A stretch of DNA of 20,000 nt from Wickerhamiella versatilis (taxonomy: Eukaryota): contig JAQOWU010000003.1 in the NCBI GenBank assembly GCA_030867685.1, positions 1,347,226-1,367,225 of the forward strand, given 5' to 3'. The position numbers and the translations under genes are program-made. Shown here piece after piece: positions 230-20,000 of the stretch. The notes beneath the pieces are model-generated. The model made no database searches. It was not told the origin of the DNA and saw only the letters and a program-made list of their open reading frames with translations. Position 1 is the first letter of the stretch. Each line of letters begins with the position of its first letter.

Positions 230-3229
230 ATGGAGGTGCTTCATCAACTGCTGGCCGGCACCTTTACAGCTGATGTACATACGCGTCACCATGCTGAACA
301 GGCTCTGCAAGAGGCAGAGTCCCAGCCGCAGTTTATTCAAACAATGTTACAACTTGTCATGTCTCCAGAGGTGCAAATACCGATTCGCACCAGTGCAGCT
401 GTGTACCTGAAAAATAAGATCGTACGCGGATGGGACATCCTAAGTGATTCAGATAAGGAGCAGTTTCGGCCGCAATTAATGGTGGCACTAGCCAGTGCGC
501 CCCAAGCCCACCGTGCGTTACTTCGAGAAATGCTAACCAAAGTGATAGGTGCCGATTTCCCCCAGAAGTGGCCCCAATTACTCGAACAGATCAAGGAAAT
601 GCTGGCAAGCAGCCATGGAGAGCAAGTTTGGGCAGGTTTGACCACTTTTATGGTTCTTACGCGCTATTTTCGCTACCAAACTTCCCAGGGACTACGCGGC
701 TTGGAGCCCATCCTGGCCGAGTTCTGGCCAGCTATCCTTCACATTTCCGAGACCTTGGTATCTCAAGGGAACTTGTCACCGGAGTCTGCACTAATGCTTT
801 ATGATTTCGCGAAGATCTATAAGTTTTCAACTGCACGTAGCATGCCCAAGATCTTACAACTGCCTGAGTACGCGGGACGTACGGTCGCAGTTCTCCTTTC
901 GATACTTATGGCCAATCTACCGGCGGAGGAATGGCGAGCCAAGAAGTGGGCTGCTTACGACCTCATGCGAACTCACATGGCATACATTGGCAGTCGCTCG
1001 CGTCTTACGGAAGCCTCGCAAGAACTATCTGATTTCAGAAAAAATTATCTTGCATGCTATACGCCAGAAATTATCAACGTCACACTCCAACTTTTGGGGG
1101 GCTCAGCTAGCTTGCCAGATGTGGTAGTGCACCATCTGGTTAGCTTCCTTGATGCATGTGTTGATCTCAAAGTGACCTGGCAAATCCTCGAACCACATCT
1201 CCCTGGTCTCATTGGCCAAATAGCTTTTCGACTCCTATGCCCCACTGAGAATGACATCGACCTGTTCGATGACGACCCTACTGAATATGTCCATCGATGT
1301 ATTGACTTTACCAATGACTTTTCAAGTCCCGCGAATGCAGCAGCTGGTTTTCTTGGTACACTGGTTCTTAAAAAGAAGCAAGCATTTGAGCCTGCCATTC
1401 AGTTTATGCAGAGTAATCTAATGGAGTTGGAAAGTGGACCCTCTGATTTACCGAATGCTATCAAACTTGCTGGTGCCCTCAGATTTATGCAAACTCTAGC
1501 ACCCGCTCTAACGAGAAAGTCGAGCCCAGTTAGGGATGAAATTGAAAGCCTACTGGCTCGCTGGGTGATCCCTCAGTTGAGTAGTGTCCACGGGTTCTTA
1601 AGATCGAGGGCATGTCAGGTGGTGAACTCACTGGCAGAGGCTCCTATATCAGATAGAAGCATTCTTCAGAGAATTTGGGAGGGAGTCGCGCAGTGCTTTT
1701 TTGATCGTGAAAACTTACCAGTACAAGTTGATGCTGCGCTGACACTTCAAGCTTTGCTTTTGGCACACGAGGATGTTCGGGCAGCCATGGAAAGTCACGT
1801 CACTGATTTTGTACGCGTCTTACTTGACCTCACCAAACGTATAGATCTGGAGAGTTTACTTGGCGTTCTGGACGAGCTTGTTAATGCATATCCTGAACAA
1901 ATAAAGCCATTCGCCGTTGAGCTTGCAGCGAACCTTCGTGATAAGTATCTGACTCTTTCAGCAGAGATCTCAGACCAGCAGGACTTTGACGCAATAGACG
2001 ATAAGATTAGCGCTGGTCTTGGTATATTAAAGTCTCTCAGCGGTTTGAACCTCAGTCTGGAGAATCAGCATGACTTACTTGTGGCACTAAGTGAGACCGT
2101 CTCCCCTATATTCGCATCGACTTATCATAGCATGCATCTTGACTTCCTTCCTGAAACACTGGAATTACACGACAATACGATCTATTCTTGCAAGACAGTG
2201 ACACCCCAATACTGGGAGATTTTTCCCTCGTTGATAGCTGTGCTTCAGGAAAGCAATTTTGATTTCATTGATGATGCCCTTCCAGTATTGGAAGGATATA
2301 CTACATATGGCATATCAGGGTTCGACGATAAGAATTTGAACTTGGTGCTTCGGGGAGTAGTCATGGCGATTTTGGGCACGCAGAATGCTACAATTGATGA
2401 CAAGATATGTGCACTTCAGCTCGGAACTCGCCTTTTCGAAACAGCCGCAATCAACAGCGACTCTTTTGCTATACCTGTTCTCGAAGTTGCCCTTCAACGC
2501 CTCAAGTGGGATGCTGAAAATCTCCCACAAATGAACAAGCGGTACGTAGTGCATCTCATCTCGCTGGTACTTGCCATACTTGTTAAAATGCCAGAAACAG
2601 TCACTTTTCTAGACTCGCATGGGGCGATCCCGTTCCTACTTTCAACATGGTTTTCTAATTTACAGCATTTCACCCGTGTACCTGACCTTAAACTCGTTGA
2701 ACTGGCTTGCTTGTCCATGTTGACAATTGACCAATTGAAGCCACAAGCCCCACAATTACTTTCTGCACTTTGCACGGTTTTGGAAGCATTACCGGAGGCT
2801 CTGAAACGTCGCGACGAGCTCCAAAAGGAAATGGAAGACCCGCATTTCGACGATTTCGATTTCGAAGACGATTGGTCTGAGGATGAAGATGATGGTGTCG
2901 ATGAAGAAGAAGTTGCGCGTGAAAATGATGGCTTTGTTGTGCAAGGTCAGCCACAGATGCAACAGCCCTCAGACCCCTCTGGAACTCAAACTGATGATTC
3001 TACGGAAGAAACTGTCAAGCCATCAGTACTTTCATTCTTCGATAACGACTTCCTGCGTGAAGATGTTTATTCGGGATCTCCTCTGGATTCCCTCGACCCT
3101 TGGCTCGCGTTGAAACAAGCTTTTACCTCAATCCAGGATTCCCAGCCACAATATTACGGTCAGCTAATTTCTGTATTGTCTGATCATAATCGCCAAGTTC
3201 TGGAGTCTGCAATTGAAAGAATAAAATAG
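230..3229 (+). CDS. NMD5: Importin-7/8 family karyopherin beta (Nmd5/Sxm1-like)
   Basis: 999-aa ORF. It has an importin N-terminal signature (AEQALQE...SAAVYLKNKIVRGW), DFPQKWP, a Cse1-like central motif (LFDDDPTEYVHR, FLRSRAC, LPVQVDAALTL) and an acidic stretch near the C-terminus. Confidence 0.88.
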   Translation: MEVLHQLLAGTFTADVHTRHHAEQALQEAESQPQFIQTMLQLVMSPEVQIPIRTSAAVYLKNKIVRGWDILSDSDKEQFRPQLMVALASAPQAHRALLREMLTKVIGADFPQKWPQLLEQIKEMLASSHGEQVWAGLTTFMVLTRYFRYQTSQGLRGLEPILAEFWPAILHISETLVSQGNLSPESALMLYDFAKIYKFSTARSMPKILQLPEYAGRTVAVLLSILMANLPAEEWRAKKWAAYDLMRTHMAYIGSRSRLTEASQELSDFRKNYLACYTPEIINVTLQLLGGSASLPDVVVHHLVSFLDACVDLKVTWQILEPHLPGLIGQIAFRLLCPTENDIDLFDDDPTEYVHRCIDFTNDFSSPANAAAGFLGTLVLKKKQAFEPAIQFMQSNLMELESGPSDLPNAIKLAGALRFMQTLAPALTRKSSPVRDEIESLLARWVIPQLSSVHGFLRSRACQVVNSLAEAPISDRSILQRIWEGVAQCFFDRENLPVQVDAALTLQALLLAHEDVRAAMESHVTDFVRVLLDLTKRIDLESLLGVLDELVNAYPEQIKPFAVELAANLRDKYLTLSAEISDQQDFDAIDDKISAGLGILKSLSGLNLSLENQHDLLVALSETVSPIFASTYHSMHLDFLPETLELHDNTIYSCKTVTPQYWEIFPSLIAVLQESNFDFIDDALPVLEGYTTYGISGFDDKNLNLVLRGVVMAILGTQNATIDDKICALQLGTRLFETAAINSDSFAIPVLEVALQRLKWDAENLPQMNKRYVVHLISLVLAILVKMPETVTFLDSHGAIPFLLSTWFSNLQHFTRVPDLKLVELACLSMLTIDQLKPQAPQLLSALCTVLEALPEALKRRDELQKEMEDPHFDDFDFEDDWSEDEDDGVDEEEVARENDGFVVQGQPQMQQPSDPSGTQTDDSTEETVKPSVLSFFDNDFLREDVYSGSPLDSLDPWLALKQAFTSIQDSQPQYYGQLISVLSDHNRQVLESAIERIK

Positions 3230-3508
3230 AAACTTATAATGACCTAGGTGTGCTGCGCAACTTAGGATTAAATATCCATGCCGTGCTTAGAGGCATGGTG
3301 TATATACAAATACATAAAAAAGAAAGTAATCTAGGATGATATTATGTTGGTGTCAGGAATACATGACGAGTGGGGTAAACCCATAAATCCACTCACGTTA
3401 GGTAGTTCAAAAGAAAGAAAAATAATTTCTGTAAGGAGGCTTACATTTGGTTAAAACTGTCTCCTATTTCGTGCACGACTCATTCGTAGACTCGATGTTA
3501 CCGCTTAC

Positions 3509-5896
3509 ATGAACTTCGCGCATCTATGGAGATGCCCGTCACCAGTCACTGCAGTTGCTGCCCATAATGAGCAGATATTTGCTGGCACAATACATGGTGA
3601 AATCTATGAATACAATCTTGTAACTTGTCAACTTGCTCAGTATTGGAAAGCGCATTCTGCCTCCATTTTGGTATTACACATTTCAGCTGATGGTTATCTT
3701 TTTAGCGGAAGTGGTGATTCGCTCGTAAAGGTGTGGAACCTCCCTTCAGTAATGTTGAAGTTCACATTATATTGTTGCACGGACGTTGGTGATGTTTTTT
3801 CGTTGGCCTACATCCCTGAAAATCGCACAGTGTATTTTGGGACTCAAAACGCTTCCATCCATTGGATGACTCTACCTGCATTAGAAGAGGAGGTCATAAT
3901 TCCCCCAGAGCGTCCGTCGAGTAGTAAGAGTCATCCAGCAGTGCGCCCATCACGATTCTTTGACAGCGCTGGACCAGGTGGGGTGCTGGCACCACAGCAA
4001 CAGGAAAAAACCATATTACAGGAATACCTGGATGCAGATTCGACCCTTGTTGAAATACCGCCAGAGAACTCTATTTCTTTCGCGCATTTTTCAGCTGTCT
4101 CGACGATGGCGGCAATAGGTAAACATTTGCTCGCAACTGGATGTGAAGACGGCGTTCTTAAGTTATGGCAAATTGATAGGGATTCTCCGCCGACTGAGCT
4201 GTATCGCATGCAGATGGATCAGCCTATTCTATCCATGAGCTTTGCTAGTACATGGCAGCCGGGTTGTGGGCTAGAAGATGGTACACTTGTACTATTTGAT
4301 GTTGAAACATTTCAAGCATTGAGTCATAAGGTAGCTAAGACACCAATTTTGTCTCTCAGTTTCATTCATGGCATGTGGTTCACCGCTAGCGGTTCCATCA
4401 CTCGTGCGCTAGACCAAAATTTTGGTTACCTTGCTGAATGGGATACTGAATCTTTAATCACATCTACTTCCTATGTGAAATCTTATTTGATAACAGGCTC
4501 TCAGAATGGTCATATAGCCATTTGGCATATGCCTGATCATGCAGTCAGCGTCGAAAGTAGCCCAAATAGTCCACAGGCATATCTTTCTGATACTAATATG
4601 ATGGAGACATTAAGGCGTCTAGTAGGATATCGCACAGTGAGCTCTCGTGAGAACACATGGTTTTCTGAGTGTCGCCAATGTGCCATAGATATTCGAGATC
4701 TGTTGCGAAGATTTGGAAGCCAGGCTGATTTTCTTCCCATCGATGGAGGTAACCCTATTATAGTGGCGAAATTCTCCCCAAAAAATCCACAAGCGCATAT
4801 TGTATTTTATGGCCATTATGATGTCATTGACGCAAATGATAGTGATGAGTGGGCATTACCTCCATTTAAGATGACGAGCGTAGATGGTTATGTCCATGGA
4901 CGCGGCGTTTCTGATAACAAGGGACCTCTAGTTGCAGCTATTTTCGCAGTGGCGGAACTTTATGCTTCAAAAGAGCTCGATGTCAGCGTTACGTTTCTTA
5001 TAGAAGGTGAGGAGGAGACTGGATCGTACGGCTTTGCTGAGGCTGTATCAAAAGCTGGGATCGAAAAGCCTGACTGGGTGCTTTTCAGTAACTCCTACTG
5101 GATCGATGATGTTCATCCGTGTCTAAATTATGGACTGCGTGGTGTCGTTCATGCGGAGGTTGAAGTAGTAAGTGATACCGTTGACAGACATTCTGGCATG
5201 GAAGGAGGTTCTTCTCGAGAGCCGACAATAGACATGATTAATCTTTTGTCCACACTCACGGTACCAAATTCTGGCAAAATTGCAATTCCAAACTTTGATT
5301 CGCCAGTGCTTCCAGTAAGTGACAAAGAACGAGTATTGTACGAGGAAATTTTAAAACATAATGATGCTGGATCATCAGTTTATGAACTAATGCAAAAATG
5401 GAGATTTCCCTCGTTGACTGTTCATCGCGTAGAGGTCAGTGGACCTGGAAACGTGACTGTGATTCCTGCAAAAGTGAATGCGGCCATCTCACTACGTCTG
5501 GTACCAAACCAAACCTCAAACATGGTGAAAGGGCTTCTTTCTAGCTTTTTGCATAGCGAATTTGCGAAACTTAAGACTTCGAATCATCTTAAGATCCACT
5601 GGCGCGGTAGCGCGGACCCTTGGTTGGGCGATCCAAGCAATGCAGCATTTGGTCTGCTTCATGATGCCACGACTGAAGTTTGGGGTGTACCACCACTTTA
5701 TATCCGTGAAGGTGGTAGTATTCCTGTTGCCCGAACATTAGAACGAATATTTGATGCCCCAGCGGCCCAACTTCCCTGCGGTCAAAGCTCAGACGGAGCT
5801 CACCTTGATAATGAACGTCTGCGTATCACAAATTTTCTTAATGCACGTGCTGTGTTTAAGCTGGTATTTCAGCGCATTGGTTCTAGGAAAACTTAA
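3509..5896 (+). CDS. DUG2: Glutathione degradosome subunit Dug2 (WD40 repeats + M20 peptidase-like domain)
   Basis: N-terminal WD40 repeats (LFSGSGDSLVKVW, LATGCEDGVLKLW) are fused to M20 motifs (FYGHYDVI, GRGVSDNKGP, EGEEETGS, REGGSIP, AHLDNER). This fusion defines Dug2. Confidence 0.93.
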   Translation: MNFAHLWRCPSPVTAVAAHNEQIFAGTIHGEIYEYNLVTCQLAQYWKAHSASILVLHISADGYLFSGSGDSLVKVWNLPSVMLKFTLYCCTDVGDVFSLAYIPENRTVYFGTQNASIHWMTLPALEEEVIIPPERPSSSKSHPAVRPSRFFDSAGPGGVLAPQQQEKTILQEYLDADSTLVEIPPENSISFAHFSAVSTMAAIGKHLLATGCEDGVLKLWQIDRDSPPTELYRMQMDQPILSMSFASTWQPGCGLEDGTLVLFDVETFQALSHKVAKTPILSLSFIHGMWFTASGSITRALDQNFGYLAEWDTESLITSTSYVKSYLITGSQNGHIAIWHMPDHAVSVESSPNSPQAYLSDTNMMETLRRLVGYRTVSSRENTWFSECRQCAIDIRDLLRRFGSQADFLPIDGGNPIIVAKFSPKNPQAHIVFYGHYDVIDANDSDEWALPPFKMTSVDGYVHGRGVSDNKGPLVAAIFAVAELYASKELDVSVTFLIEGEEETGSYGFAEAVSKAGIEKPDWVLFSNSYWIDDVHPCLNYGLRGVVHAEVEVVSDTVDRHSGMEGGSSREPTIDMINLLSTLTVPNSGKIAIPNFDSPVLPVSDKERVLYEEILKHNDAGSSVYELMQKWRFPSLTVHRVEVSGPGNVTVIPAKVNAAISLRLVPNQTSNMVKGLLSSFLHSEFAKLKTSNHLKIHWRGSADPWLGDPSNAAFGLLHDATTEVWGVPPLYIREGGSIPVARTLERIFDAPAAQLPCGQSSDGAHLDNERLRITNFLNARAVFKLVFQRIGSRKT

Positions 5897-8723: not shown

Positions 8724-9863
8724 ATGGCTATGAGTTTAGCTCGAAGAATAGTGTCTTCAGCTCAATCAATAGAACCTCAAAATAATGAGACACAAAATCA
8801 TTCAACTTCTCACGGTAAGCATAGGCAGTCACCTCTCCAATCCACACTGCCTCCAGTGGTCCAACCCCAAACGGACCTAATTAAACAGGTAAATGACGGC
8901 TATGGTGTGGATATAGGTCCCTTTATTCTGCATGAAGAGCCAAAACTGATCTGCTGTAGTAAATGTGATAGTCGGTCAAATCCTCTTCGAATATCAGATC
9001 TTAAGCAACACGTCAAACAATTCCATTCTGTGAATGGCACTCCCAAAAAAGAATTTGAAGATGCGCGAATCCAACTTGTGATGAAGATAGGCAATAGCGA
9101 AGAATATCAAACAATTCCCACAATACAGGGTCCGATTCGGGCACTAAGAGGTTTGAGAATCAATGCAGAAGGAGTAAAATGTGGTGGATGTTCCTGGGCC
9201 CGCTCCCGTTCTAGTTTGGTTCGTGTACAGCAGCACGCCCGGTCAGCTCATGATCGTCCTTATGAGGTAGTTGAGAATGTCAAGGTGCAGGTCGGAAAGA
9301 GAGGCGAGCACGGGTCATTTCTTGTTTATGAAACGTATCCAGAACTACAAAAGTTGCTAGAAAAAAGGCCTGCTATGCCAATGGCTGAGTCTCATCGTGA
9401 TGCACGTCAGCCAGATCCCGAATCTACTTTGGTCAGTAGTGAGGAGGAGTATGGAGCATCAGTAAGTCCACACAGCTCCCTTTCTTCTCCAAAATCTAAA
9501 AAACGCCGAAAGGGGCTGAACTATAAGCCAATCAGTGAATTAGCTAGATCTGTCCTATCCAGCGGGAGTGTGCCAGAGACGCAAATGACACTTGAAAAGC
9601 AGAAATTACTGCGAGTTTATGCAGATACATTAAGCGAGACCGCCAAGTTACTCGATATTCCGGCAACAGAACACCATCGGTGCTTTGTTCGCTCAATGTG
9701 TGCATTGGTAGTTCAAGAGGCAGCCTGGCAGCTTCAAGATACCAGAATGGCCCCCTTCATGGCTTCTGCTGCCCGAAGTATCACTGCTGACCCAGGTTTG
9801 TTCGAAACACTAGTATTAGGTGTTGTTGATGTCCTACAGAATCCAAATGAATTTGGTCCCTAG
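8724..9863 (+). CDS. Hypothetical nuclear protein with two C2H2-like zinc modules (DUF3505/OrsD-like)
   Basis: The ORF-track start at 8661 is GTG; the first in-frame ATG is 8724. Motifs are LICCSKC...LKQHVKQFH, GPIRALRGL, GVKCGGC...VQQHARSAH and VKVQ, plus an NLS-like PKSKKRRK. The domain call is from remembered motif spacing. Confidence 0.6.
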   Translation: MAMSLARRIVSSAQSIEPQNNETQNHSTSHGKHRQSPLQSTLPPVVQPQTDLIKQVNDGYGVDIGPFILHEEPKLICCSKCDSRSNPLRISDLKQHVKQFHSVNGTPKKEFEDARIQLVMKIGNSEEYQTIPTIQGPIRALRGLRINAEGVKCGGCSWARSRSSLVRVQQHARSAHDRPYEVVENVKVQVGKRGEHGSFLVYETYPELQKLLEKRPAMPMAESHRDARQPDPESTLVSSEEEYGASVSPHSSLSSPKSKKRRKGLNYKPISELARSVLSSGSVPETQMTLEKQKLLRVYADTLSETAKLLDIPATEHHRCFVRSMCALVVQEAAWQLQDTRMAPFMASAARSITADPGLFETLVLGVVDVLQNPNEFGP

Positions 9864-10000: not shown

Positions 10001-10759
10001 ATGGAAAATAGCGAAGAACTGTTTGAGAAAAGAAATACTGATCTGGAATTGAGAAATGCACAAAGCTTAGCTGATCGACTCCGAACACGACTAGCTGATG
10101 CTTATCGTGAGCTAGACATGCAGGGCCCCAAATTGCGGCAGTTGGCGCGGACTGTGGAGCAAGCACAGGCTTCAAATCTTAAGAAAGATGCACAAATACG
10201 TAGTCTCCAAGGTGATGTCCGCGAGTGCAGTGCCCGTGTTTCGCGTATGGAAATGCGCGCAAAAAAGATGGAGACTGCACTATCTACAGCCCGCTCAAAA
10301 TATGGCAGCGAGCTGCGCAAACGTGATGTCCAAGAGGAGAAACTTCTACGTGAATTGCGCCGAGTTCAGGCGTCCCCGTCGGTACCAGCACCCAAAATTC
10401 CCACCATGATGTTCCAATCACATGAAGAACGAGCCCTGGTGGTCTTTGATAACGAGCAAAAGAGGCTTGCACAAGAATTAGAGCGCCGTTTGGAGTCTCT
10501 ATGCCATAGATTCAATGCAGCAGAATTCTCAGGTCCACCTATAGATCGGTTGGAGAAGGCTATCGTTGCGATGGAGCAGCGTCACGCAGTTCAACTTCAG
10601 CAAGAAATTGAGCGCAGCGAGGGGCTCCAGAAAAAATTGTGGCAGATGAAAGAGGAGCTGGATGAGAAGACCGCACTTTGCAAGCGGGACGTTGAGACTT
10701 TGGAAAAATGGAGTCAATATGTACGTGATAAAGATCTTCTTCAAGTCGCGGGGATTTGA
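10001..10759 (+). CDS. Coiled-coil protein, possibly ADIP/Msd1-like (afadin/alpha-actinin-binding family)
   Basis: 252-aa ORF that is almost entirely heptad-like and E/K/R/L-rich. ELRKRDVQEEKL resembles the end of the fungal ADIP domain. The gene itself is likely real; the family is tentative. Confidence 0.55.
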   Translation: MENSEELFEKRNTDLELRNAQSLADRLRTRLADAYRELDMQGPKLRQLARTVEQAQASNLKKDAQIRSLQGDVRECSARVSRMEMRAKKMETALSTARSKYGSELRKRDVQEEKLLRELRRVQASPSVPAPKIPTMMFQSHEERALVVFDNEQKRLAQELERRLESLCHRFNAAEFSGPPIDRLEKAIVAMEQRHAVQLQQEIERSEGLQKKLWQMKEELDEKTALCKRDVETLEKWSQYVRDKDLLQVAGI

Positions 10760-11835: not shown

Positions 11836-12111
11836 ATGTCATTCCTTGGTTTGGGCGGAAAACAGGCCGTGAACGCCGACAAGTTGAAGCTTGAGGCTGC
11901 AGAAACTGAACTTGACACAGTTGCTGACCTCTTCAATAGGCTTATAGACTCGTGCCACCGCAAGTGCATCAGCGGATACAGCGATGGCGAACTTACCGCG
12001 AAAGAGGGTCTGTGTAACGATCGTTGTGTTTCGAAGTATTTCGAGGTAAATGCTAAAATTGGTGAGCAGATGCAACAGCAAGGGCAACAGTTTATGGCCC
12101 AAAGACGTTAA
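11836..12111 (+). CDS. TIM10: Mitochondrial intermembrane-space small Tim chaperone Tim10
   Basis: 91 aa with a twin CX3C motif (CHRKC, CNDRC). It starts MSFLGLGG and contains AAETELDTVADLFN and CVSKYFEVN, as in Tim10. Confidence 0.93.
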   Translation: MSFLGLGGKQAVNADKLKLEAAETELDTVADLFNRLIDSCHRKCISGYSDGELTAKEGLCNDRCVSKYFEVNAKIGEQMQQQGQQFMAQRR

Positions 12112-12736
12112 GCAAGCGCATCTTGACCCCTTCCCATGAATTTAGTTTTGGGCGGGCATCTAAATAGAAACTAGGTCTTTCCGGATGTCTTTGATCTGGA
12201 GTGCCGGTATAAAAGTCTATGATATAATCCACACGCGTTCCGCAGCGGTCGATCACCCAGTCGTGGCGGTCAAATGGTCGGGTGTCACCGAGTAGCATGT
12301 TCCAGCGGGCTTTGGGGCTCAGCTTCGAGGAATCCCCGCTGAAACTCACAAGTTTGGGCCCTCCACATGCGATCCCTTTACCCTTCTCCCATTTTAAAAT
12401 CTCTGACCAGGCCTTCTCGTTAACAGCATTATGAATCGGAATGATTGTGGCCATGTCACGCGCTTCCGGACTATAGTTTTTTCGTAGCATAGCACTGTAA
12501 AACTGTTGTTGGGATGGATATATCCAATTACCATCTTTTCCAGCTCTTGGTATTGAGGAGACCTCCCGTTGACTAGAAAGTTGCTGAGGTATATTATTTA
12601 GTGGTGGTAGGCCCTCTCCACCATTTCCATGATCTAACCACTTCTTAACTGCCTCGGGATCATTATGGTCCACAGGGCACTCTAAAGCGTTCTCTTTAGA
12701 ATCAACTTGAGAATGGTCAACCGGGCACCCGGCCAT
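12092..12736 (-). CDS. CYT2: Cytochrome c1 heme lyase (holocytochrome c1 synthase)
   Basis: The ORF-track start at 12754 is GTG; the first ATG is 12736. It has two CPVDH heme-regulatory motifs, REVSSIPR, NWIYPS, HNAVNE, PFDRHDW and YIIDFY. CGGPKLVSFSGDS and LDARPKLNSWEG favour Cyt2 over Cyc3. Confidence 0.9.
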   Translation of the reverse strand: MAGCPVDHSQVDSKENALECPVDHNDPEAVKKWLDHGNGGEGLPPLNNIPQQLSSQREVSSIPRAGKDGNWIYPSQQQFYSAMLRKNYSPEARDMATIIPIHNAVNEKAWSEILKWEKGKGIACGGPKLVSFSGDSSKLSPKARWNMLLGDTRPFDRHDWVIDRCGTRVDYIIDFYTGTPDQRHPERPSFYLDARPKLNSWEGVKMRLLNVFGP

Positions 12737-14159
12737 GTGGATTCGATTAGTCACCTTCTGGAATGACCCACAGTACTGTAAAAGCAGAACACCTCTCGCT
12801 TTTTGCGGTTAAAAGTAGTTAGCATTGATTTTTGGTGTGTGTTTTTTCCCAATCTATTTAACCGAGGTTGTGCACTAATTCTCCCTTAATTGTGGCAGTA
12901 TGACTTACAGGGATCTTGTAATCCCGACCAGGATCAAAAAAGATAGAGTCTACAATGATCATAATTTCACTTCAGTTCTGACACCATGGTATATATTGCA
13001 TCATTTATACAACGACCTTTTAAAATCCTTTTTTTTCTGGTTAAAATGCCCTTTTTCGAGGAGCTACACGCTGGGACTCAACCCTATCCCATGTAGAGTA
13101 AATCATTGGGTCCACATACATATTTATTGTTGAGATATTTGCGGAGCATGTTCCTAAATTAACCTTATCAGCCCCTTTACCCTACTGTCTGAAACAGCTT
13201 AACTGGCCAAGGAGCTAGCTCAGTTCTTCAAGATCGATACCCTCCACTTCATAAAACACCATACCACTATAGGGTCCACATTCAAGATTGGTCGGATTTT
13301 GGTGAAATATGACACTTGCGCTTCTTTAAAAACATCCCTACTTATGCTTTTTTCTCTCATCTTTAAAACGGTTTTAATAGCGAGTCTGAAAACCCACTTT
13401 ACTACTATATTGTATTGATTTTATTTCCATCGTCGCTGAATTGCTTTTCATCTATCCTTACCTTCTTACTGAAAAGGATTAGCTTTTTACTATATTCGGT
13501 AATCTCCAAGCAACTTTTGCGCGCGCATTCGTGGACCATCAGGTAATTTCCACATTAAGTAAAGTACCCTGAACCCTGGCCACTTGCAGTACTCGTCCCA
13601 CAGAAAGGCATAAATAGCGTCCAATCGCTCCCAATTCTCCATTCTTCTTACACCCACCCAGCACCAGGATCACTTCGCGCTTCCACACAATCGAGATGCC
13701 TTATCATCTTGCGCTACCCAGGTATGACCTGCCGAGGGCCAGGACCACATGATCCCACTCTCAAGTGATAGTATCATATTTATAGCGGACTGCTTCCCGT
13801 TCTCACTCCTGCTTCGAAATTAAGGCTCTTCATTTGTTGAATGCTGGCTCATACAGTACTAACTTAATGTTGTTTGAGCGAGCAATTCTAATAGACACCT
13901 CTCCGCAGCTCCCAACAACGGATGGGACAAAATTCACCGTCTACCATTATTGAAGAGATGAAGCGAGAAGCCAAAGCCAGGAGCAAAAAGCTGGGTGTCA
14001 TGGGCCCACAAAACGAAACACCCAAACTGGATTCGCTTAAATCCGCGCGCGTATCTCTCTTCCATTGGCTATACTCCACTATTCTACCGTCTACCCCTGT
14101 ATTACTGATACTTATACTTCAGTATTGATACAAATCAAAAATTAACGCAAACAATCCTT

Positions 14160-14730
14160 TGAATACTTCTGACTACTGCCTGATTCGTATCATATGTTCT
14201 TCACAAGATGAGGCGTAAGTCTTCGCTCAATGCGTATTCCTGCTTCGTGTTGCGTTCCACAAACACCAATGAATCAAAATTCATAGCAAAATGATCCGAA
14301 CAAATATCGAAAAATGCAAACGATACGGAATAAATCAAAACAAAAAGGAAAATCTCAGTATCACCTGAGTATCTGACTTCTTGACGACAACATCCGACAC
14401 AGACATACCATTCTTACTGAGGACTACTGTCTATACCAAACAAAAATTGCTCGATATCATCTCAAGGTCCTCCCTGAGGCTCTTGAGTTTGGTCAGCGGG
14501 TATTTTGTTTTGGTATTCACGGAGCTTTCCTCTCTCGTGTGCCTAATTTGGGTATAGTGCAAACTCAGATACCTCTCAAATGATGCAAGAGAACAATCAG
14601 ACAGAAACATGTCCAATATCGGTCAGATACATCCGAAATCTGTTGTATCTCCTCACTCCGACAACGGTGGAAAGCCATCCACAAAGAAATCCTAAATCGC
14701 CAGTATCCGGAAACAATATATGTGATCCTT
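14160..14730 (+). mobile_element. Decayed Ty1/copia-type pol fragment (integrase to RT start); also the most diverged first monomer of the array
   Basis: Motif remnants occur in copia order: MIRTNI at 14291 (cf. LIHTDI), LDDNIRHRHTIL at 14380 (cf. IDDYSRYRW), LEFGQRV..FGIHGAFL..VPNL at 14482-14545 (cf. Ty1 FGQPV..RGIPGYAL..YLPSL), then WKAIHKEI near 14668 (RT start). There are many stops, frameshifts and deletions. Confidence 0.55.
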
Positions 14731-15596
14731 TTACTGGTTTCAGGGGTTCTTTGACCGGATGGCAGGATACTTTTTGTCAACTGCTTTAGCAGAGTAGAGG
14801 TTTCACTCAGATCTTGGATACACACAAGCGAATCAAAACTTCAAAAATATCAATTGGATATCTTCGGTTCATTGCCGACTCAAGTCCATTCTGAACATTG
14901 TGCAGAGAAGACACATTGATATTAAGAGATTCTGACAATATGAAGAAAACATTGCTCAAAGCACTCTCAAAGTTTCCTGTAAACTCTTGAATTGGGCTAA
15001 AGGGTCAATTTTTTTTTCTATTAGCAGATTTTCCGTTTATCTTTTGCCTTCTTTGGCTGTAGCAACGAACCAAGCATATCCCAAATGGAATTCTCCTCAA
15101 AAAACAAGAAAGAGATACGTCTATTGTTTGCCAAGTATATCTGAATCTGCTGCATCTCCTCACTCCGACAAATGGTGGAAAGCCATCCACAAAGAAATCC
15201 TATCGCCAGTATCCGGAAACAATACATGTGATCCTTTTGCTGGTTCAGGTTTTCTTTGACCGGGCGGCAAGATACCTTTTGTCGACTGCTTCAGCAGAGT
15301 AGAGGTCTCGCTCAGATTTTGGATACACACAGGAATTTGGCTGTCTCACACTGGTATTCAAAAAATGTCAATTGAATATGTCTGGTTGCCGAAACGTCAG
15401 ACCCACTCGACGGAGGTATATGCATGTATACTGAGAGTTACTGGCCATATGGAGACAAAATCACTCGATATCTTCTCAAAGCTTTCCATAAAGCGTCTGA
15501 GTTTGATAAAAAGATTGAATTTTGTATCTCCATTTACAGGAATCTCTTTTATCCTTTGCCTTCTTTGGTTGTGACGGCAAAGACATCACCTTGCAT

Positions 15597-16141
15597 CAAA
15601 AGAATATCAACTAAAACAATCAAAAAAAGTCAACCAAGAACAAGCAAAATAATTTCAATCAAAATCATTTCAATCAAATACAAAAAAAAATCAACCAAGA
15701 ACAATCATTTCAATCAAAAACAACAAAAAGATATCAATCAAGAACAATCAAAATCATTTCAATCAAAAACAAAAAAAACATCAATCAAGAACAATCCAAA
15801 AAATATCAACCAAGAACAATCAAAATCATCTCAATCAAAAACAAAAAAAAGTCAATCAATCAAAAACAATAAAAAGATCTCAATCAAGAACAATCAAAAA
15901 AAATATCAATCAAATACAAAAAAAGATCAACCAAGAACAATTATTTCAATCAAAAACAAAAAAAAAGTCAATCAAGAGGAACCAAAAAAATATCAACCAA
16001 GAACAATCAAAATCATCTCAATCAAAAACAAAAAAAATGTCAACCAAGAACAATTAATTAAAAAAAAATCAAAATCATTTCCATCAAAAAAAATCACAAT
16101 CAAAAGCAATCAAAAAAATGTCAAACAAAACAATCCAACCA
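15597..16141 (+). repeat. A-rich compound microsatellite tract 1 (aatcaaaa / caaccaagaacaatc / aatcatttcaatc)
   Basis: About 545 bp of shuffled short motifs that are A-dominated with very few G on the + strand. Confidence 0.92.
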
Positions 16142-17060
16142 GTCTCCTCACTTCGACAACGGTAGAAAGCCATCCACAAAGAGATGCTATGTCGCCAGCA
16201 TCTGGAAGCAATGCATGTGATCCTTTTGCTCAGGGATTCTTTGACCGGGCGGCTAGATACCTTTTGTCAACTGCTTTAGCAGATTAGAGGTTTCACTCAT
16301 ATTGGATACACACAAGGGAATCCATCAATCAAAAATATCAATTGGATATCTTTGGTTCATTGCTGACTCCAGTTCATTCGGAACATTGTGCAGAGAAGGC
16401 ACATTGATATTAAGGGATTCTGACAATATGAAGAAAAATCACTCGATATCTTCTCAAAGTTTTCCATCAAACTTTTGATCAAAAGGTTGAGTTTTATGTC
16501 TATATTCACAGGAATCTCTTTTATCATTTGCCTTCTTTGGTCGAAGCAACAAGCCAAGCATATCTCAAATGGTATTCGCCCATCTATTGTATGACAAGCA
16601 TATCTGAATCTGCTGTGTCCCCTTACTCCGACAAATGGTGGAAAGCCATCCACAAAGAAATCCTATCGCCAGTATCTGGAAACAACATATATGATCCTTT
16701 TGCTGGTTTCAGGGTTTCTTTGACCGGGCGGCAGGATACCTTTTGTCAACTGCTTCAGCAGAGTAGAGGTTTCGCTCAGATTTTGGATACAGATATTTGG
16801 CTATCTCACACTGGTATTCAAAAAATGTCAATTGAATATGTCTGGTTGCCGAAAAGTCAGACCCACTCGACGGAGGTATACGCATGTATACTGAGAGTAC
16901 TGGCCATATGGAGACAAAATCACTCGATATCTTCTCAAAGCTTTCCATAAAGCGTCTGAGTTTGATCAAAAGATTGAATTTTGTTTCTCCACAGGAATCT
17001 CTCTATCCTTTACCTTTTTTGGTTGTGGCGGCAAAGACACAGAAAAGCCATCACCTTGCA

Positions 17061-17383
17061 TCAAAAAATAAACAGAAACCAATCAAAATAATTTCCATCA
17101 AAACCCAAAAAAATGTCAATTAAAATCATTTCAATCAAAAAAAATCGACCAAGAACAATCATTTCAATCAAAAACAAAAAAAGATATCAATCAAAAACAA
17201 AAAAAATATCAATCAAGAACAATCAAAAAAAATGTCAACCAAGAACAATCAAAAGAAAATGTCAACCAAGAACAATCAATCAAAAAAAATCATAATCAAG
17301 AACGATCAAAATCATTTCAATCAAAAACAAAAAAACTGTCAATCAAGAACAATCAAAAAATGTCAAACAAAACAATCCAATCA
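17061..17383 (+). repeat. A-rich compound microsatellite tract 2
   Basis: Same motifs and same flanks as tract 1 (caccttgca on the left, caatccaa.cagtctcct on the right); about 325 bp. Confidence 0.92.
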
Positions 17384-18629
17384 GTCTCCTCATTCGACAA
17401 CGGTGGAAGCCATTCACAAAGAAATGCTGTGTCGCCAGCATCTGGAAGCAATAAAATATGATATCCTCTTGCTGGTTTCAGATTCCTTTGACTGGGCGGC
17501 TAGATACCTTTTGTCAACTGCTTTAGCAGATTAGAGGTTTCACTCAGATCTTGGATACACACAAGGAAATCCATCAATCAAAAGTGTCAATTGGATATCT
17601 TTGGTTCATTGCTGACTCCAGTTCATTCTGAACATTGTGCAGGGAAGACACATTGATATTAAGAGATTCTGACAATATGAAGAAAACATTGCTCAAAGCA
17701 CTCTCGAAGTTTCCTGTGAAGTCTTGAATTCGGCTGAAAGGTTACTTTTTTTTCTATTAGCAGATTTTCCATTTATCTTTTGCCTTCTTTGGTCGTAGCA
17801 ACGAACCAAATATATCTCAAATGGTATTCTCCTCAAAAAAACAAGAAAGAGATACGTCTATTGTATGCCAAGTATATCTGAATCTGCTGTATCTCCTCAC
17901 TCCGACAAATGGTGGAAAGCCATCCACAAAGAAATCCTATCGCCAGTATCCGGAAACAACATATGTGATCCTTTTGCTGGTTTCAGGGTTTCTTTGACCG
18001 GGCGGTAGGATACCTTTTGTCAACTGCTTCAGCAGAGTAGAGGTTTGGCCCAGATTTTGAATACACACAGGAATTTGGCTATCTCACACTAAATGTGGTA
18101 TTCAAAAGAATCATCGAAATAATCATTATTTCAAAAAATGTCAATTGAATATGTCTGGTTGTCGAAAAGTCAGACCCACTCGACGGAGGTATATGCATGT
18201 ATACTGAGAGTTACTGGCCATATGGAGACAAAATCACTCGATATCTTCTCAAAGCTTTCCATAAAGCGTCTGAGTTTGATAAAAAGATTGAATTTTGTAT
18301 CTCCATTTACAGGAATCTCTTATCCTTTACCTTCTTTGGTTGTGGCGGCAAATCAGACATATGTTTCAAATGGCGTTATATTCAAGAGAACCATTAAGGA
18401 CAAGAGTCCTATCAGAACTCTGTCGTATATCCGAAACATTTGATGAAATTCATCCACTGTATCTCTTCGCATATTCACAAGGAAACCCTACGCTACTCGT
18501 ATTCAGAAGAAACTGATATAATCGTACTGATATCAGGAATTCTTTTTGATGAGATTGCGATATGTTCTCTGTTGACTGCTCCGAGATAGCAGACCATTTC
18601 TCAAAGATACGGAGAAGCCACCACCTTGC

Positions 18630-18909
18630 AACAAAAAATTAACAAAAACCAATCAAAAGAATATCAACTAAAACAATGAACAAAAATTCAACCAAGAACA
18701 ATCAAAAAAATATCAATCAAAAGCAATCAAAAATGTTAATCAAGAACAATCATGTCAATCAAGAACAATCAAAATCATTTCAATCAAAAACAATCAAAAA
18801 GAATATCAATCAAAACAACAATCAAAAAAAAATGTCAATCAAAACAACAATCAAAAAAAAATGTCAACCAAGAACAATCAAAAATATGTCAAACAGAACA
18901 ATCCAACCA
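18630..18909 (+). repeat. A-rich compound microsatellite tract 3
   Basis: Same motifs and flanks as tracts 1 and 2; about 280 bp. Confidence 0.92.
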
Positions 18910-20000
18910 GTCTCCTTCGACAACGGTGAAAAGCTATCCACAAAGAATCTATGTTGCCAGCATCTGAAAACAATGAAATATGTGATCCTTTTGCTGGTCT
19001 CAGATTTCCTTTGACCGGTTGGCTAGACATCTTTTGTCAACTGCTTCAGCAAAGTAGAGGTTTGACTCAGATTTTGGATACACACAAGGAAATCAATCGA
19101 TCAAAAGTATCAATTGGATATTTCTGTTTGTTGCCGACTCCAGTCCATTTGGACCATTGTGCAGAGAGGCACATTGATACTAAGAGATTCTGAAAATATG
19201 AAGAAAAATTACTCGATATCTTCTCAAAGTTTTCCATCAAACTTTTTGATCAAGAGGTTGAGTTTTATGTCTATATTCACAGGAATCTCTTTATCCTTTG
19301 CCTTCTTTGGTCGAAGCAATAAGCCAAGCATATCTCAAATGGTATTCGCCCATCTATTGTATGACAAGCATATCTGAATCTGCTGTGTGCCCTCACTCCG
19401 ACAACGGTGGAAAGCCATCCACAAAGAATCGTATGTCGCCAGCATCTGGAAATATGTTATCCTTTTGCTGGTTTCAGATTTCCTTTGACCGGGTGGCTAG
19501 ATATCTTTTGTCAACTGCTTTAGCAGACTAGAGGTTTGACTCAGATTTTGGATACACACAAGGGAATCCGTCAATCAAAAATATCAATTGGATATCTTGG
19601 TTTATTGCCGACTCATGTCCATTCGGAACATTGTGCAGAGAAGACACATTGATATTAAGGGATTCTGAAAATATGAAGAAAATCATCTGATATCTTCTCA
19701 AAGTTTTCCATCAAACTTTTGATCAAGAGGTTGAGTTTTATGTCTCTATTCACAGGAATCTCTTTTATCATTTGCCTTCTTTGGTCGAAGCAACAAACCA
19801 AGCATATCCCAAATGATATTCGCCCAAGAAAAAAAACGAGAAAGAGATACGTCTATGTTTGACAAGTATATCTGAATCTGCTGTATCTCCTCACTCCGAC
19901 GAATAGTGGAAAGCCATCCACAAAGAAATCCATATCGCCAGTATCCGGAAACATACATGTCCGGAAACAATACATGTGATCCTTCTGCTGGTTTCAGGTT

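What the first reader, a model, noticed from the sequence alone, without database searches (positions are those of the whole stretch)
12737..20000. Candidate satellite-type regional centromere next to CYT2
Seen: gaps between genes on the left are 143, 279, 194, 149, 137, 141, 65 and -20 bp, then coding stops abruptly for >7.2 kb of AT-rich repeats. Established: several budding yeasts have regional centromeres in gene-free, low-GC areas associated with Ty5/copia-type retroelements. Inference: this could be a centromere where retrotransposon debris has become a satellite with higher-order repeats, an architecture more typical of plants and animals than of budding yeasts.
Basis: inference. Interest (0 to 1): 0.8.

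Follow-up and report, generated by a model that had tools for sequence, protein, structure and literature searches.

The report
Single-chromosome satellite array, candidate yeast centromere
A silent, gene-free gap of 11.6 kb in the middle of one chromosome of a very compact budding-yeast genome is filled with a nested, satellite-like repeat; it may be that chromosome's centromere, which would be an unusual build for a fungus, but the repeat was found on no other chromosome and nothing yet shows that it binds the spindle.

Summary
The window is the end of contig C3, and the next contig C1 overlaps it inside the array (1,171 bp, 99.1%). The gap therefore closes: 11,557 bp from CYT2 to an ERG8-like gene, 1.44/1.11 Mb from the ends of a 2.57-Mb chromosome of a Wickerhamiella/Starmerella-clade yeast. 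The first 1.65 kb is unique. The rest (~9.3 kb, 36% GC) holds 11 monomers of ~480 bp in two subfamilies, plus A-rich microsatellite, in five higher-order units of 1.2-2.1 kb. Each monomer looks like an old inverted dimer of a ~250-bp unit. The gap is nearly silent in two RNA runs and present in independent DNA samples.

Best reading (~0.6): this chromosome's regional centromere, with a locally grown satellite. Main rival (~0.3): a non-centromeric tandem amplification. No Cse4 or Hi-C data were available. The scan's index held no look-alike of this DNA.

The parts
11836..12111 (+). TIM10-like gene, left flank (context)
   Evidence: Pfam zf-Tim10_DDP E 2.5e-18; highly expressed; the name TIM10 rather than TIM9 is from recall
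12092..12736 (-). CYT2-type cytochrome c1 heme lyase, last gene before the gap (context)
   Evidence: Pfam PF01265 E 2.7e-46; best named hit 61% to Wickerhamiella sorbophila cytochrome c1 heme lyase
12737..14389 (.). Unique non-coding left shoulder of the gap, 41% GC, nearly silent beyond the CYT2 5' end
   Evidence: single match in the genome; no repeats above chance; RNA depth; GC
14390..14647 (+). Degenerate monomer relic at the left edge of the array
   Evidence: nhmmer with one monomer, 14390-14584, E 5.5e-10
14648..16142 (+). Higher-order unit 1 (1,495 bp): A monomer 14648-15154, B monomer 15155-15594, A-rich microsatellite 15595-16142
16143..17384 (+). Higher-order unit 2 (1,242 bp): A monomer 16143-16617, B monomer 16618-17050, microsatellite 17051-17384
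16334..16576 (.). Example of the degenerate palindrome inside an A monomer (axis near 16455-16460); a second axis lies about 70-75 bp into each monomer
   Evidence: self reverse-complement score 90, reached by 0 of 100 shuffles; axis tests
17385..18906 (+). Higher-order unit 3 (1,522 bp): A monomer 17385-17891, B monomer 17892-18380, ~250-bp spacer 18381-18628, microsatellite 18629-18906
18907..20000 (+). Start of higher-order unit 4 (2,084 bp in all): A monomers 18907-19387 and 19388-19885, A/B-intermediate monomer from 19886. It continues in G000:C1 (L011), where unit 5 (C1 ~2152-3680), decayed relics (to ~C1:4830) and the ERG8-like ORF (C1:5455-6720) follow
18840..20000 (+). Overlap of the end of contig C3 with the start of contig C1 (C1:1-1171)
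   Evidence: 99.15% identity, 0 mismatches, 10 one-base gaps; contigs of two other samples show one-base insertions relative to the window in this stretch, as C1 does

Best explanation
The 11.6-kb gap is most likely the regional, epigenetically placed centromere of this 2.57-Mb chromosome, and most of it has been overgrown by a satellite born on the spot. SHOWN: position, size, silence, low GC, nested repeat structure, confinement to one locus. INFERRED HISTORY: a ~250-bp unit was duplicated head-to-head into a ~480-bp palindromic monomer; the monomer was amplified in tandem and split into A and B subfamilies; an A+B(+spacer)+A-rich-microsatellite block was then copied as a 1.2-2.1-kb higher-order unit by unequal exchange or conversion, while the edges, which exchange less, decayed. 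INFERRED FUNCTION: Cse4/CENP-A nucleosomes sit somewhere in this silent, AT-enriched, dyad-bearing DNA and build the kinetochore without a sequence shared with other chromosomes, as in the gene-free regional centromeres of other budding yeasts. The other two chromosomes would then use unrelated sequence; the unique 2.7-kb, 34%-GC gap at C7:1,981,022-1,983,695 is a candidate.
For: Interstitial, 1.44/1.11 Mb from ends that carry outward-pointing 41-bp arrays. The C3-C1 join is backed by the overlap, by CYT2-TIM10-ERG8 linkage in an unrelated yeast locus L092, and by proteins from both flanks and from the array all recorded on a contig of the same length, 2,080,119 bp (same contig is inferred from the length). 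The gap is 11,557 bp in a genome with 65-279-bp spacers here; in 88 other sampled stretches (864,729 bp) the longest run without a 150-aa ORF was 4,270 bp. Lowest 2-kb GC is 0.333 here; in those 88 stretches only L151 (0.322) is as low, the next is 0.369. Nearly silent, yet flanked by well-expressed housekeeping genes. Kept in two independent DNA samples, with piece depths near that of the single-copy flank (7.8-20.2 vs 16.4; 22-34.2 vs 30.7, table 8; the tool warns that depth is no copy number). The nearest described lineage has ~6-kb gene-free GC troughs with poly-A as putative centromeres (PMC4022394, Additional file 4). Chromosome-unique centromere sequence is known in yeasts (PMC12711049). 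The genome encodes a divergent H3 with a longer loop 1, a CenH3 candidate. Dyad symmetry is present and is reported as enriched at many centromeres (PMC5889037).
Against: No functional data. The family was found on neither of the other two chromosomes. No A-rich array appeared elsewhere in two genome-wide pattern scans, nor any comparable array in 350 kb of C7 (13%) and 320 kb of C8 (7%), so a genome-wide satellite-centromere architecture is not supported. No candidate was found on C8. Most of this chromosome was not read, so a separate short AT-rich centromere on it is not excluded. GC is higher (36%) than in the Blastobotrys troughs (31-33%). Flanking genes show no clear GC3 trough (0.41-0.44 vs 0.39-0.50 elsewhere). 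The Yarrowia 16-bp consensus has no match under 3 mismatches in the gap. L151 shares no sequence with the gap. The inverted-dimer history has mixed support: a 110-bp-arm dyad scan gave no peak over its threshold, a profile of one half found only 2 of 6 opposite halves (E~1e-3), and the monomers are not independent tests.
Confidence: 0.6

Rival explanations
1. A non-centromeric local satellite: a chance inverted duplication in an intergenic region was amplified by unequal exchange into a nested tandem array, like a small, single-locus version of the Candida albicans Major Repeat Sequence. The true centromere of this chromosome is a short AT-rich gap elsewhere.
For: Single-locus family. Only 11 monomers. 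Nested non-centromeric tandem repeats exist in a budding yeast (2-kb RPS units built of 80-170-bp segments; PMC6896093). The one other GC trough found (L151) is short and repeat-free. A 49-genome fungal sample showed no satellite centromeres (bioRxiv 10.64898/2026.09.17.752431).
Against: It does not explain why a genome with sub-300-bp spacers keeps 11.6 kb of silent DNA, including 1.65 kb of unique sequence, between housekeeping genes in several samples. Five A-rich spots tested on the same chromosome were ordinary, though that is a tiny sample.
Confidence: 0.3
2. One reading: the satellite is decayed Ty5/copia LTR or internal sequence at a Ty5-cluster centromere.
For: Monomer length is loosely LTR-like, and Ty5 clusters mark centromeres in many yeasts (PMC12711049, PMC13017519).
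Against: 0 of 108 frames with a retroelement domain; no integrase match in the genome; no PBS under 2 mismatches; a profile search of 1.84 billion proteins with a 172-aa frame returned 5 hits, all spurious frames of this same array; 0 LTR elements reported in three clade members; Ty5-cluster centromeres are dated to the ancestor of Pichiomycetes and Saccharomycetes, which this clade lies outside (placement from recall); Ty5 clusters are shared between chromosomes, this family is not.
Confidence: 0.04
3. Decayed tandem gene array or hidden repeat-protein gene (for example the 287-aa K/Q/N-rich ORF at 15424-16287).
For: Several open frames over 100 aa exist.
Against: Only 20 of 115 pairwise indels between monomers are multiples of three; variable columns show no clear codon periodicity (43/50/54 and 16/16/26); near-zero RNA; no family or outside homologue.
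Confidence: 0.03
4. Subtelomeric repeat, or an assembly artefact at a contig end.
For: The window ends exactly at the end of contig C3, and that end carries one-base errors.
Against: C1 overlaps and continues the array into essential-type genes; the 41-bp end repeat is absent from the gap; contigs from two other samples carry the array.
Confidence: 0.02

Closest known systems
Putative regional centromeres of Blastobotrys (Arxula) adeninivorans and centromeres of Yarrowia lipolytica (PMC4022394, passages and Additional file 4)
   Same: Gene-free GC trough of several kb with A-rich tracts, no transposons; nearest lineage with described centromeres.
   Different: Those are ~6 kb, 31-33% GC, not associated with inverted repeats or transposons, and carry a 16-bp motif. 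This gap is 11.6 kb, 36% GC in the array, 80% nested tandem repeat, with no good motif match.
Short regional centromeres of Candida albicans/C. dubliniensis (as summarised in PMC12711049, introduction)
   Same: Gene-free regions of 4-18 kb with no sequence shared between chromosomes.
   Different: Those are described as essentially featureless; this one is a higher-order tandem array.
Repeat-bearing budding-yeast centromeres: Kuraishia capsulata 200-bp motif, Wickerhamomyces anomalus 21-bp tandem motif (PMC12711049), Saccharomycopsis schoenii satellite islands (PMC13148404, passages)
   Same: Tandem or repeated units inside a large centromeric intergenic gap; chromosome-specific satellites in S. 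schoenii.
   Different: Those motifs are shared between chromosomes, or make up about 1.2% of the region. None is described with A/B subfamilies in higher-order units filling most of the gap.
Plant and animal centromeric satellites with higher-order repeats (bioRxiv 10.64898/2026.09.17.752431, section on satellite diversity)
   Same: Monomer subfamilies in recurring order, better-kept centre and decayed edges, chromosome-specific sequence.
   Different: Here 11 monomers and 9 kb rather than very large arrays; found on one chromosome only; CENP-A occupancy unknown; lineage without H3K9 heterochromatin (PMC13017519).
Candida albicans Major Repeat Sequence (RPS arrays; PMC6896093, passages)
   Same: Nested tandem repeat with ~2-kb units built of smaller segments, in a budding yeast.
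   Different: MRS is ~50 kb, on seven of eight chromosomes and listed apart from centromeres; this array is single-locus and 9 kb. No sequence comparison was made.
Ty5-cluster centromeres (PMC13017519, PMC12711049)
   Same: Large gene-free repeat-rich gap.
   Different: No retroelement domain, PBS, integrase or inter-chromosomal sharing here.

Membership tests
Regional budding-yeast centromere | Cse4/CENP-A occupancy | not testable with these tools
   No ChIP-type run among the 24 listed.
Regional budding-yeast centromere | Hi-C trans-contact (centromere clustering) peak | not testable with these tools
   No Hi-C data or tool.
Regional budding-yeast centromere | Large gene-free, transcriptionally quiet interval | tested here: met
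   11,557 bp; 0 of 108 frames with a Pfam family; RNA depth at most 2.2 per strand and bin.
Regional budding-yeast centromere | Local GC trough | tested here: met
   2-kb minimum 0.333; only 1 of 88 other stretches is as low.
Regional budding-yeast centromere | Interstitial, not subtelomeric | tested here: met
   1.44/1.11 Mb from the ends.
Regional budding-yeast centromere | Exactly one such locus per chromosome | tested here: inconclusive
   One candidate on C7 (L151), none on C8; only 13% and 7% of these were read, and little of this chromosome.
Regional budding-yeast centromere | Genome encodes a CenH3 | tested here: inconclusive
   Divergent 124-aa H3 at C8:1,601,856-1,602,227 with a 3-residue longer loop 1, beside three canonical H3 hits; best PDB scores do not separate H3 from Cse4 (98.6 vs 96 bits); hallmarks from recall.
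Regional budding-yeast centromere | Yarrowia/Blastobotrys 16-bp palindromic consensus | tested here: not met
   Best match in the gap has 3 mismatches, like matches in genes. It is a feature of those species, not of the whole class.
Satellite with higher-order repeats | Head-to-tail monomers above chance | tested here: met
   11 monomers of 433-564 bp; 1273 vs at most 50.9 bits.
Satellite with higher-order repeats | Monomers more alike between units than within a unit | tested here: met
   A-A 78-92%, B-B 89-96%, A-B 69-80%; the B clade has support 1.0; units 72-84% alike.
Satellite-type centromere (plant/animal kind) | Satellite family on several or all chromosomes | tested here: not met
   Clusters only at the C3/C1 junction.
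Ty5-cluster centromere | Ty5 coding remnants, LTRs, PBS | tested here: not met
   The RVT_2 search was blank but uninformative, since its control was blank too. No direct comparison with an LTR library was possible.
Inverted-repeat centromere (Komagataella, C. tropicalis type) | One pair of kb-long inverted repeats around a core | tested here: not met
   All self-matches of 60 bp or more in the window are on the plus strand; inverted symmetry is only short-range and degenerate.

The most novel reading that the evidence does not exclude
The higher-order satellite is itself the Cse4-bearing centromere of one chromosome, while the other chromosomes use short unique AT-rich gaps. This would be a snapshot of a satellite centromere being born in a fungus, from an inverted duplication, without transposons or H3K9 heterochromatin, and the first located centromere of the Wickerhamiella/Starmerella clade.
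Probability: 0.38. Interest if true: 0.85.

Novelty: new variant of a known kind. Interest (0 to 1): 0.6.

Why it matters
[quoted passage not shown] A 2026 survey saw no satellite centromere architecture in 49 fungi and suggested fungi may be unable to make or keep such arrays (bioRxiv 10.64898/2026.09.17.752431). A small, fully readable higher-order satellite in a yeast bears on that idea even if it is not centromeric. If it is, it offers a tractable model of how satellites arise at a centromere, and a CEN part for stable plasmids in a yeast group used in fermentation.

Tried and rejected
Looking for sister arrays on C7 and C8. BLAST-type searches with a monomer, the left shoulder and the right decayed flank, and motif scans, gave only isolated outside hits. 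One exact 16-mer at C7:1,413,940 lies in gene-dense, non-repetitive DNA. 16 + 40 + 10 stretches of 10 kb and 12 of 2.4 kb were read; none held a comparable array. GC3 as a long-range centromere signal: no clear trough. W-rich patterns to find GC troughs genome-wide: tested on held sequence and dropped as non-discriminating. RVT_2 search: blank with a blank control, uninformative. NUMT origin: no match to the mitochondrial contig. Structured RNA or tRNA array: nothing; the consensus fold has only 6 of 59 pairs with a two-sided change. Synteny: 80 metagenome loci, mostly distant fungi; none from this clade was recognisable. C3:623,416 was first taken for Cse4 and is a histone-fold protein of another kind. 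Cluster look-ups gave no species names. Data 13 of PMC13376923 (AT-rich domain coordinates) could not be read and may bear on candidates for the other chromosomes; supplements of the bioRxiv atlas are closed.


Full report
1. WHERE THE WINDOW LIES. The window is G000:C3:1,347,226-1,367,225, the last 20 kb of contig C3, in a 9.88-Mb assembly of 8 contigs. The genes are those of a budding yeast: importin-beta, WD40-M20 peptidase, HECT ligase, two orphans, aldo-keto reductase, Tim10-family, heme lyase. The best named relative of the heme lyase is Wickerhamiella sorbophila at 61%, so the host is placed in or near the Wickerhamiella/Starmerella (W/S) clade; the species was not established. Contig ends overlap: C3 end with C1 start (1,171 bp, 99.15%, no mismatch, ten one-base gaps), C4 start with C3 start (2,526 bp), C8 end with C5 end (1,232 bp); C2 is 18% GC and taken as mitochondrial. 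This gives three chromosomes of 2.57, 2.64 and 4.63 Mb, the number reported for W/S species (PMC13376923, section read). A 41-bp tandem array points outward at the C1 end, the C4 end, the C7 start and near the C8 start and is absent from the gap. The gap is thus 1.44 Mb from one end and 1.11 Mb from the other.

2. CHECK OF THE OBSERVATION. All eight intergenic distances are right. Coding stops at 12736 and resumes at an ERG8-like ORF (name from recall of the protein) at C1:5455, a gap of 11,557 bp. None of 108 open frames of at least 50 aa reaches a Pfam cut-off. Two RNA runs give at most 2.2 reads per strand and bin over 13006-20000, against 9.5-420 and 1.7-181 over the genes; in run X24 the weakest genes are only a few-fold above the gap.

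3. ANATOMY. The repeat-derived span is 9,281 bp, 80% of the gap. It holds 11 full monomers of 433-564 bp. Six are A-type (78-92% alike), four B-type (89-96%), one intermediate; A against B is 69-80%. They come in five units of 1,495, 1,242, 1,522, 2,084 and 1,529 bp, each A(+A)+B, in the last three a ~250-bp spacer, then 211-548 bp of A-rich microsatellite (60% A on the plus strand); the units are 72-84% alike. Decayed relics lie at both edges. This is a true higher-order repeat in miniature. Indels (20 of 115 multiples of three) and substitutions show no clear codon pattern. A search of 1.84 billion proteins with a 172-aa frame found five hits, all frames of this array; two match exactly, and three differ from this assembly, which suggests variants in other strains or assemblies.

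4. The monomer profile hits the array's minus strand (best E 3.5e-10). Nine of 11 monomers align to their own reverse complement better than all but 0-3 of 100 dinucleotide shuffles, and 10 of 11 fold with z at or below -1.9 (12 shuffles each; one search gave -2.1 on 100). Two axes per monomer cut it into ~250-bp halves that align in opposite orientation at 47-57% identity. With the same axis optimisation applied to shuffles, 10 of 12 axes were reached by at most 1 of 40 shuffles, one by 3 and one by 15; three midway controls were reached by 27, 21 and 2 of 40; 11 of 12 axes beat the best of 20 genic controls. Against this, a scan with 110-bp arms gave no peak over threshold, a profile of one half found 2 of 6 opposite halves and 0 of 12 scrambled controls, and the monomers are related, so these are not independent tests. 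I read the monomer as an old inverted dimer, with moderate confidence.

5. IS IT REAL AND HOW BIG. Contigs from an isolate run and from a food-fermentation metagenome tile the array with few differences, and their unique flank contig stops at 14680, where the repeats begin. Depths of the listed array pieces (7 per run) are near the flank's, so the array is probably not much larger than assembled; the tool cautions that depth is not copy number. A strain with SNPs in the genes also has sparse reads in the array up to about 18,100. CYT2, TIM10 and ERG8 lie within 8.4 kb in an unrelated yeast locus (L092), and CYT2-TIM10 are adjacent in L077; these are 2 of 80 loci, and neither has a gene-free gap within 10 kb.

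6. OTHER CHROMOSOMES. The monomer matched 18 places, all at the C3/C1 junction; the microsatellite 18-mer 24 of 26. Two core motifs cluster only there, with outside hits at about control level. A-run scans found no other multi-kb cluster. These searches can miss diverged families. I read 350 kb of C7 and 320 kb of C8 and found no array. One stretch stood out: C7:1,981,022-1,983,695, a 2,674-bp divergent spacer of 34% GC between an esterase-like gene and an RPL37-like gene (names from recall), without repeats, unique in the genome and unrelated to the array. It and the array are the two lowest-GC 2-kb windows in about 0.87 Mb read. It may be the C7 centromere or just a long promoter or relic.

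7. ORIGIN. The retrotransposon idea fails each test I could run: no domain, no PBS, no integrase match in the genome, no LTR elements in three W/S genomes (PMC13376923 Data 14), and Ty5-cluster centromeres are placed in other classes (PMC13017519). A fold-back duplication followed by tandem amplification fits the anatomy; a MITE-like source cannot be excluded, though no dispersed copy was found.

8. FUNCTION. For a centromere: size, silence, GC trough, mid-chromosome position between housekeeping genes, persistence across samples, and likeness to the gene-free poly-A troughs proposed for Blastobotrys. Against: no shared family, no complete one-per-chromosome set, no functional data, and the Candida MRS as a precedent for a nested repeat that is not a centromere. 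I put the centromere in this gap at about 0.6, and the satellite itself as the Cse4 platform at about 0.38. It works like a regional centromere candidate. It should not be filed as a plant/animal-type satellite centromere or a Ty5-cluster centromere, since defining features of both were tested and not met.

9. LITERATURE AND NOVELTY. Seen: PMC13376923 (passages, first part of one section, Data 14 part 1, Data 16, Data 17 part 1); PMC4022394 (passages, Additional file 4); PMC12711049 (abstract, two sections, passages); PMC13017519 (passages, one section); bioRxiv 10.64898/2026.09.17.752431 (passages, one section); PMC13148404, PMC6896093, PMC5889037, PMC5499181, PMC12983215 (passages). Searches turned up no description of a W/S-clade centromere or of a higher-order satellite at a budding-yeast centromere; the library lacks most subscription papers. 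The scan's index held no look-alike of this DNA and no centromere note for this genome.

10. VERDICT. A real and unusual locus: a 9-kb, single-locus, higher-order satellite with palindromic monomers in the largest silent gap seen in this genome. Probably a centromere, unproven. New variant of a known kind; interest 0.6.

Noticed in passing
G000:C7:1981022-1983695 (L151:1022-3695): 2,674-bp unique, repeat-free spacer of 34% GC between divergent genes; lowest 2-kb GC of all stretches read; candidate centromere of C7.
   Followed up: partly
L023 end (C1), L029 end (C4), L020 start (C7), L021:3142-3635 (C8): Tandem arrays of a 41-bp unit at four of six inferred chromosome ends, all pointing outward, as a telomere repeat would; single copies also occur inside.
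   Followed up: partly
G000:C8:91-3189 vs last 3.1 kb of C7: 99.9% inverted duplicate lying distal to the 41-bp array of C8; likely an assembly misjoin.
   Followed up: no
G000:C8:1601856-1602227, minus (L200:256-627): Divergent 124-aa histone H3 with a longer loop 1 and a very short N-terminal tail; CenH3 candidate.
   Followed up: partly
L092 and L077: The convergent CYT2-TIM10 pair, and ERG8 nearby in L092, are kept in distant yeasts; ERG8 lies on the other side of the pair there, implying an inversion.
   Followed up: partly
window 8724-9863 and 10001-10759: Two expressed ORFs (379 and 252 aa) with no Pfam family.
   Followed up: no
window 11836-12111 / 12092-12736: The TIM10-like and CYT2 ORFs converge and overlap by 20 bp at their 3' ends.
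   Followed up: no
window 18840-20000: The contig end carries about ten one-base deletions relative to C1 and to other samples; the C1 version should be preferred.
   Followed up: yes
P0002 (86% identical CYT2): A sister-species CYT2 sits on a contig of at most 24,922 bp, close to the 25,687-bp contig that ends at the array in this species; it hints at a similar break next to CYT2 but could not be checked.
   Followed up: no
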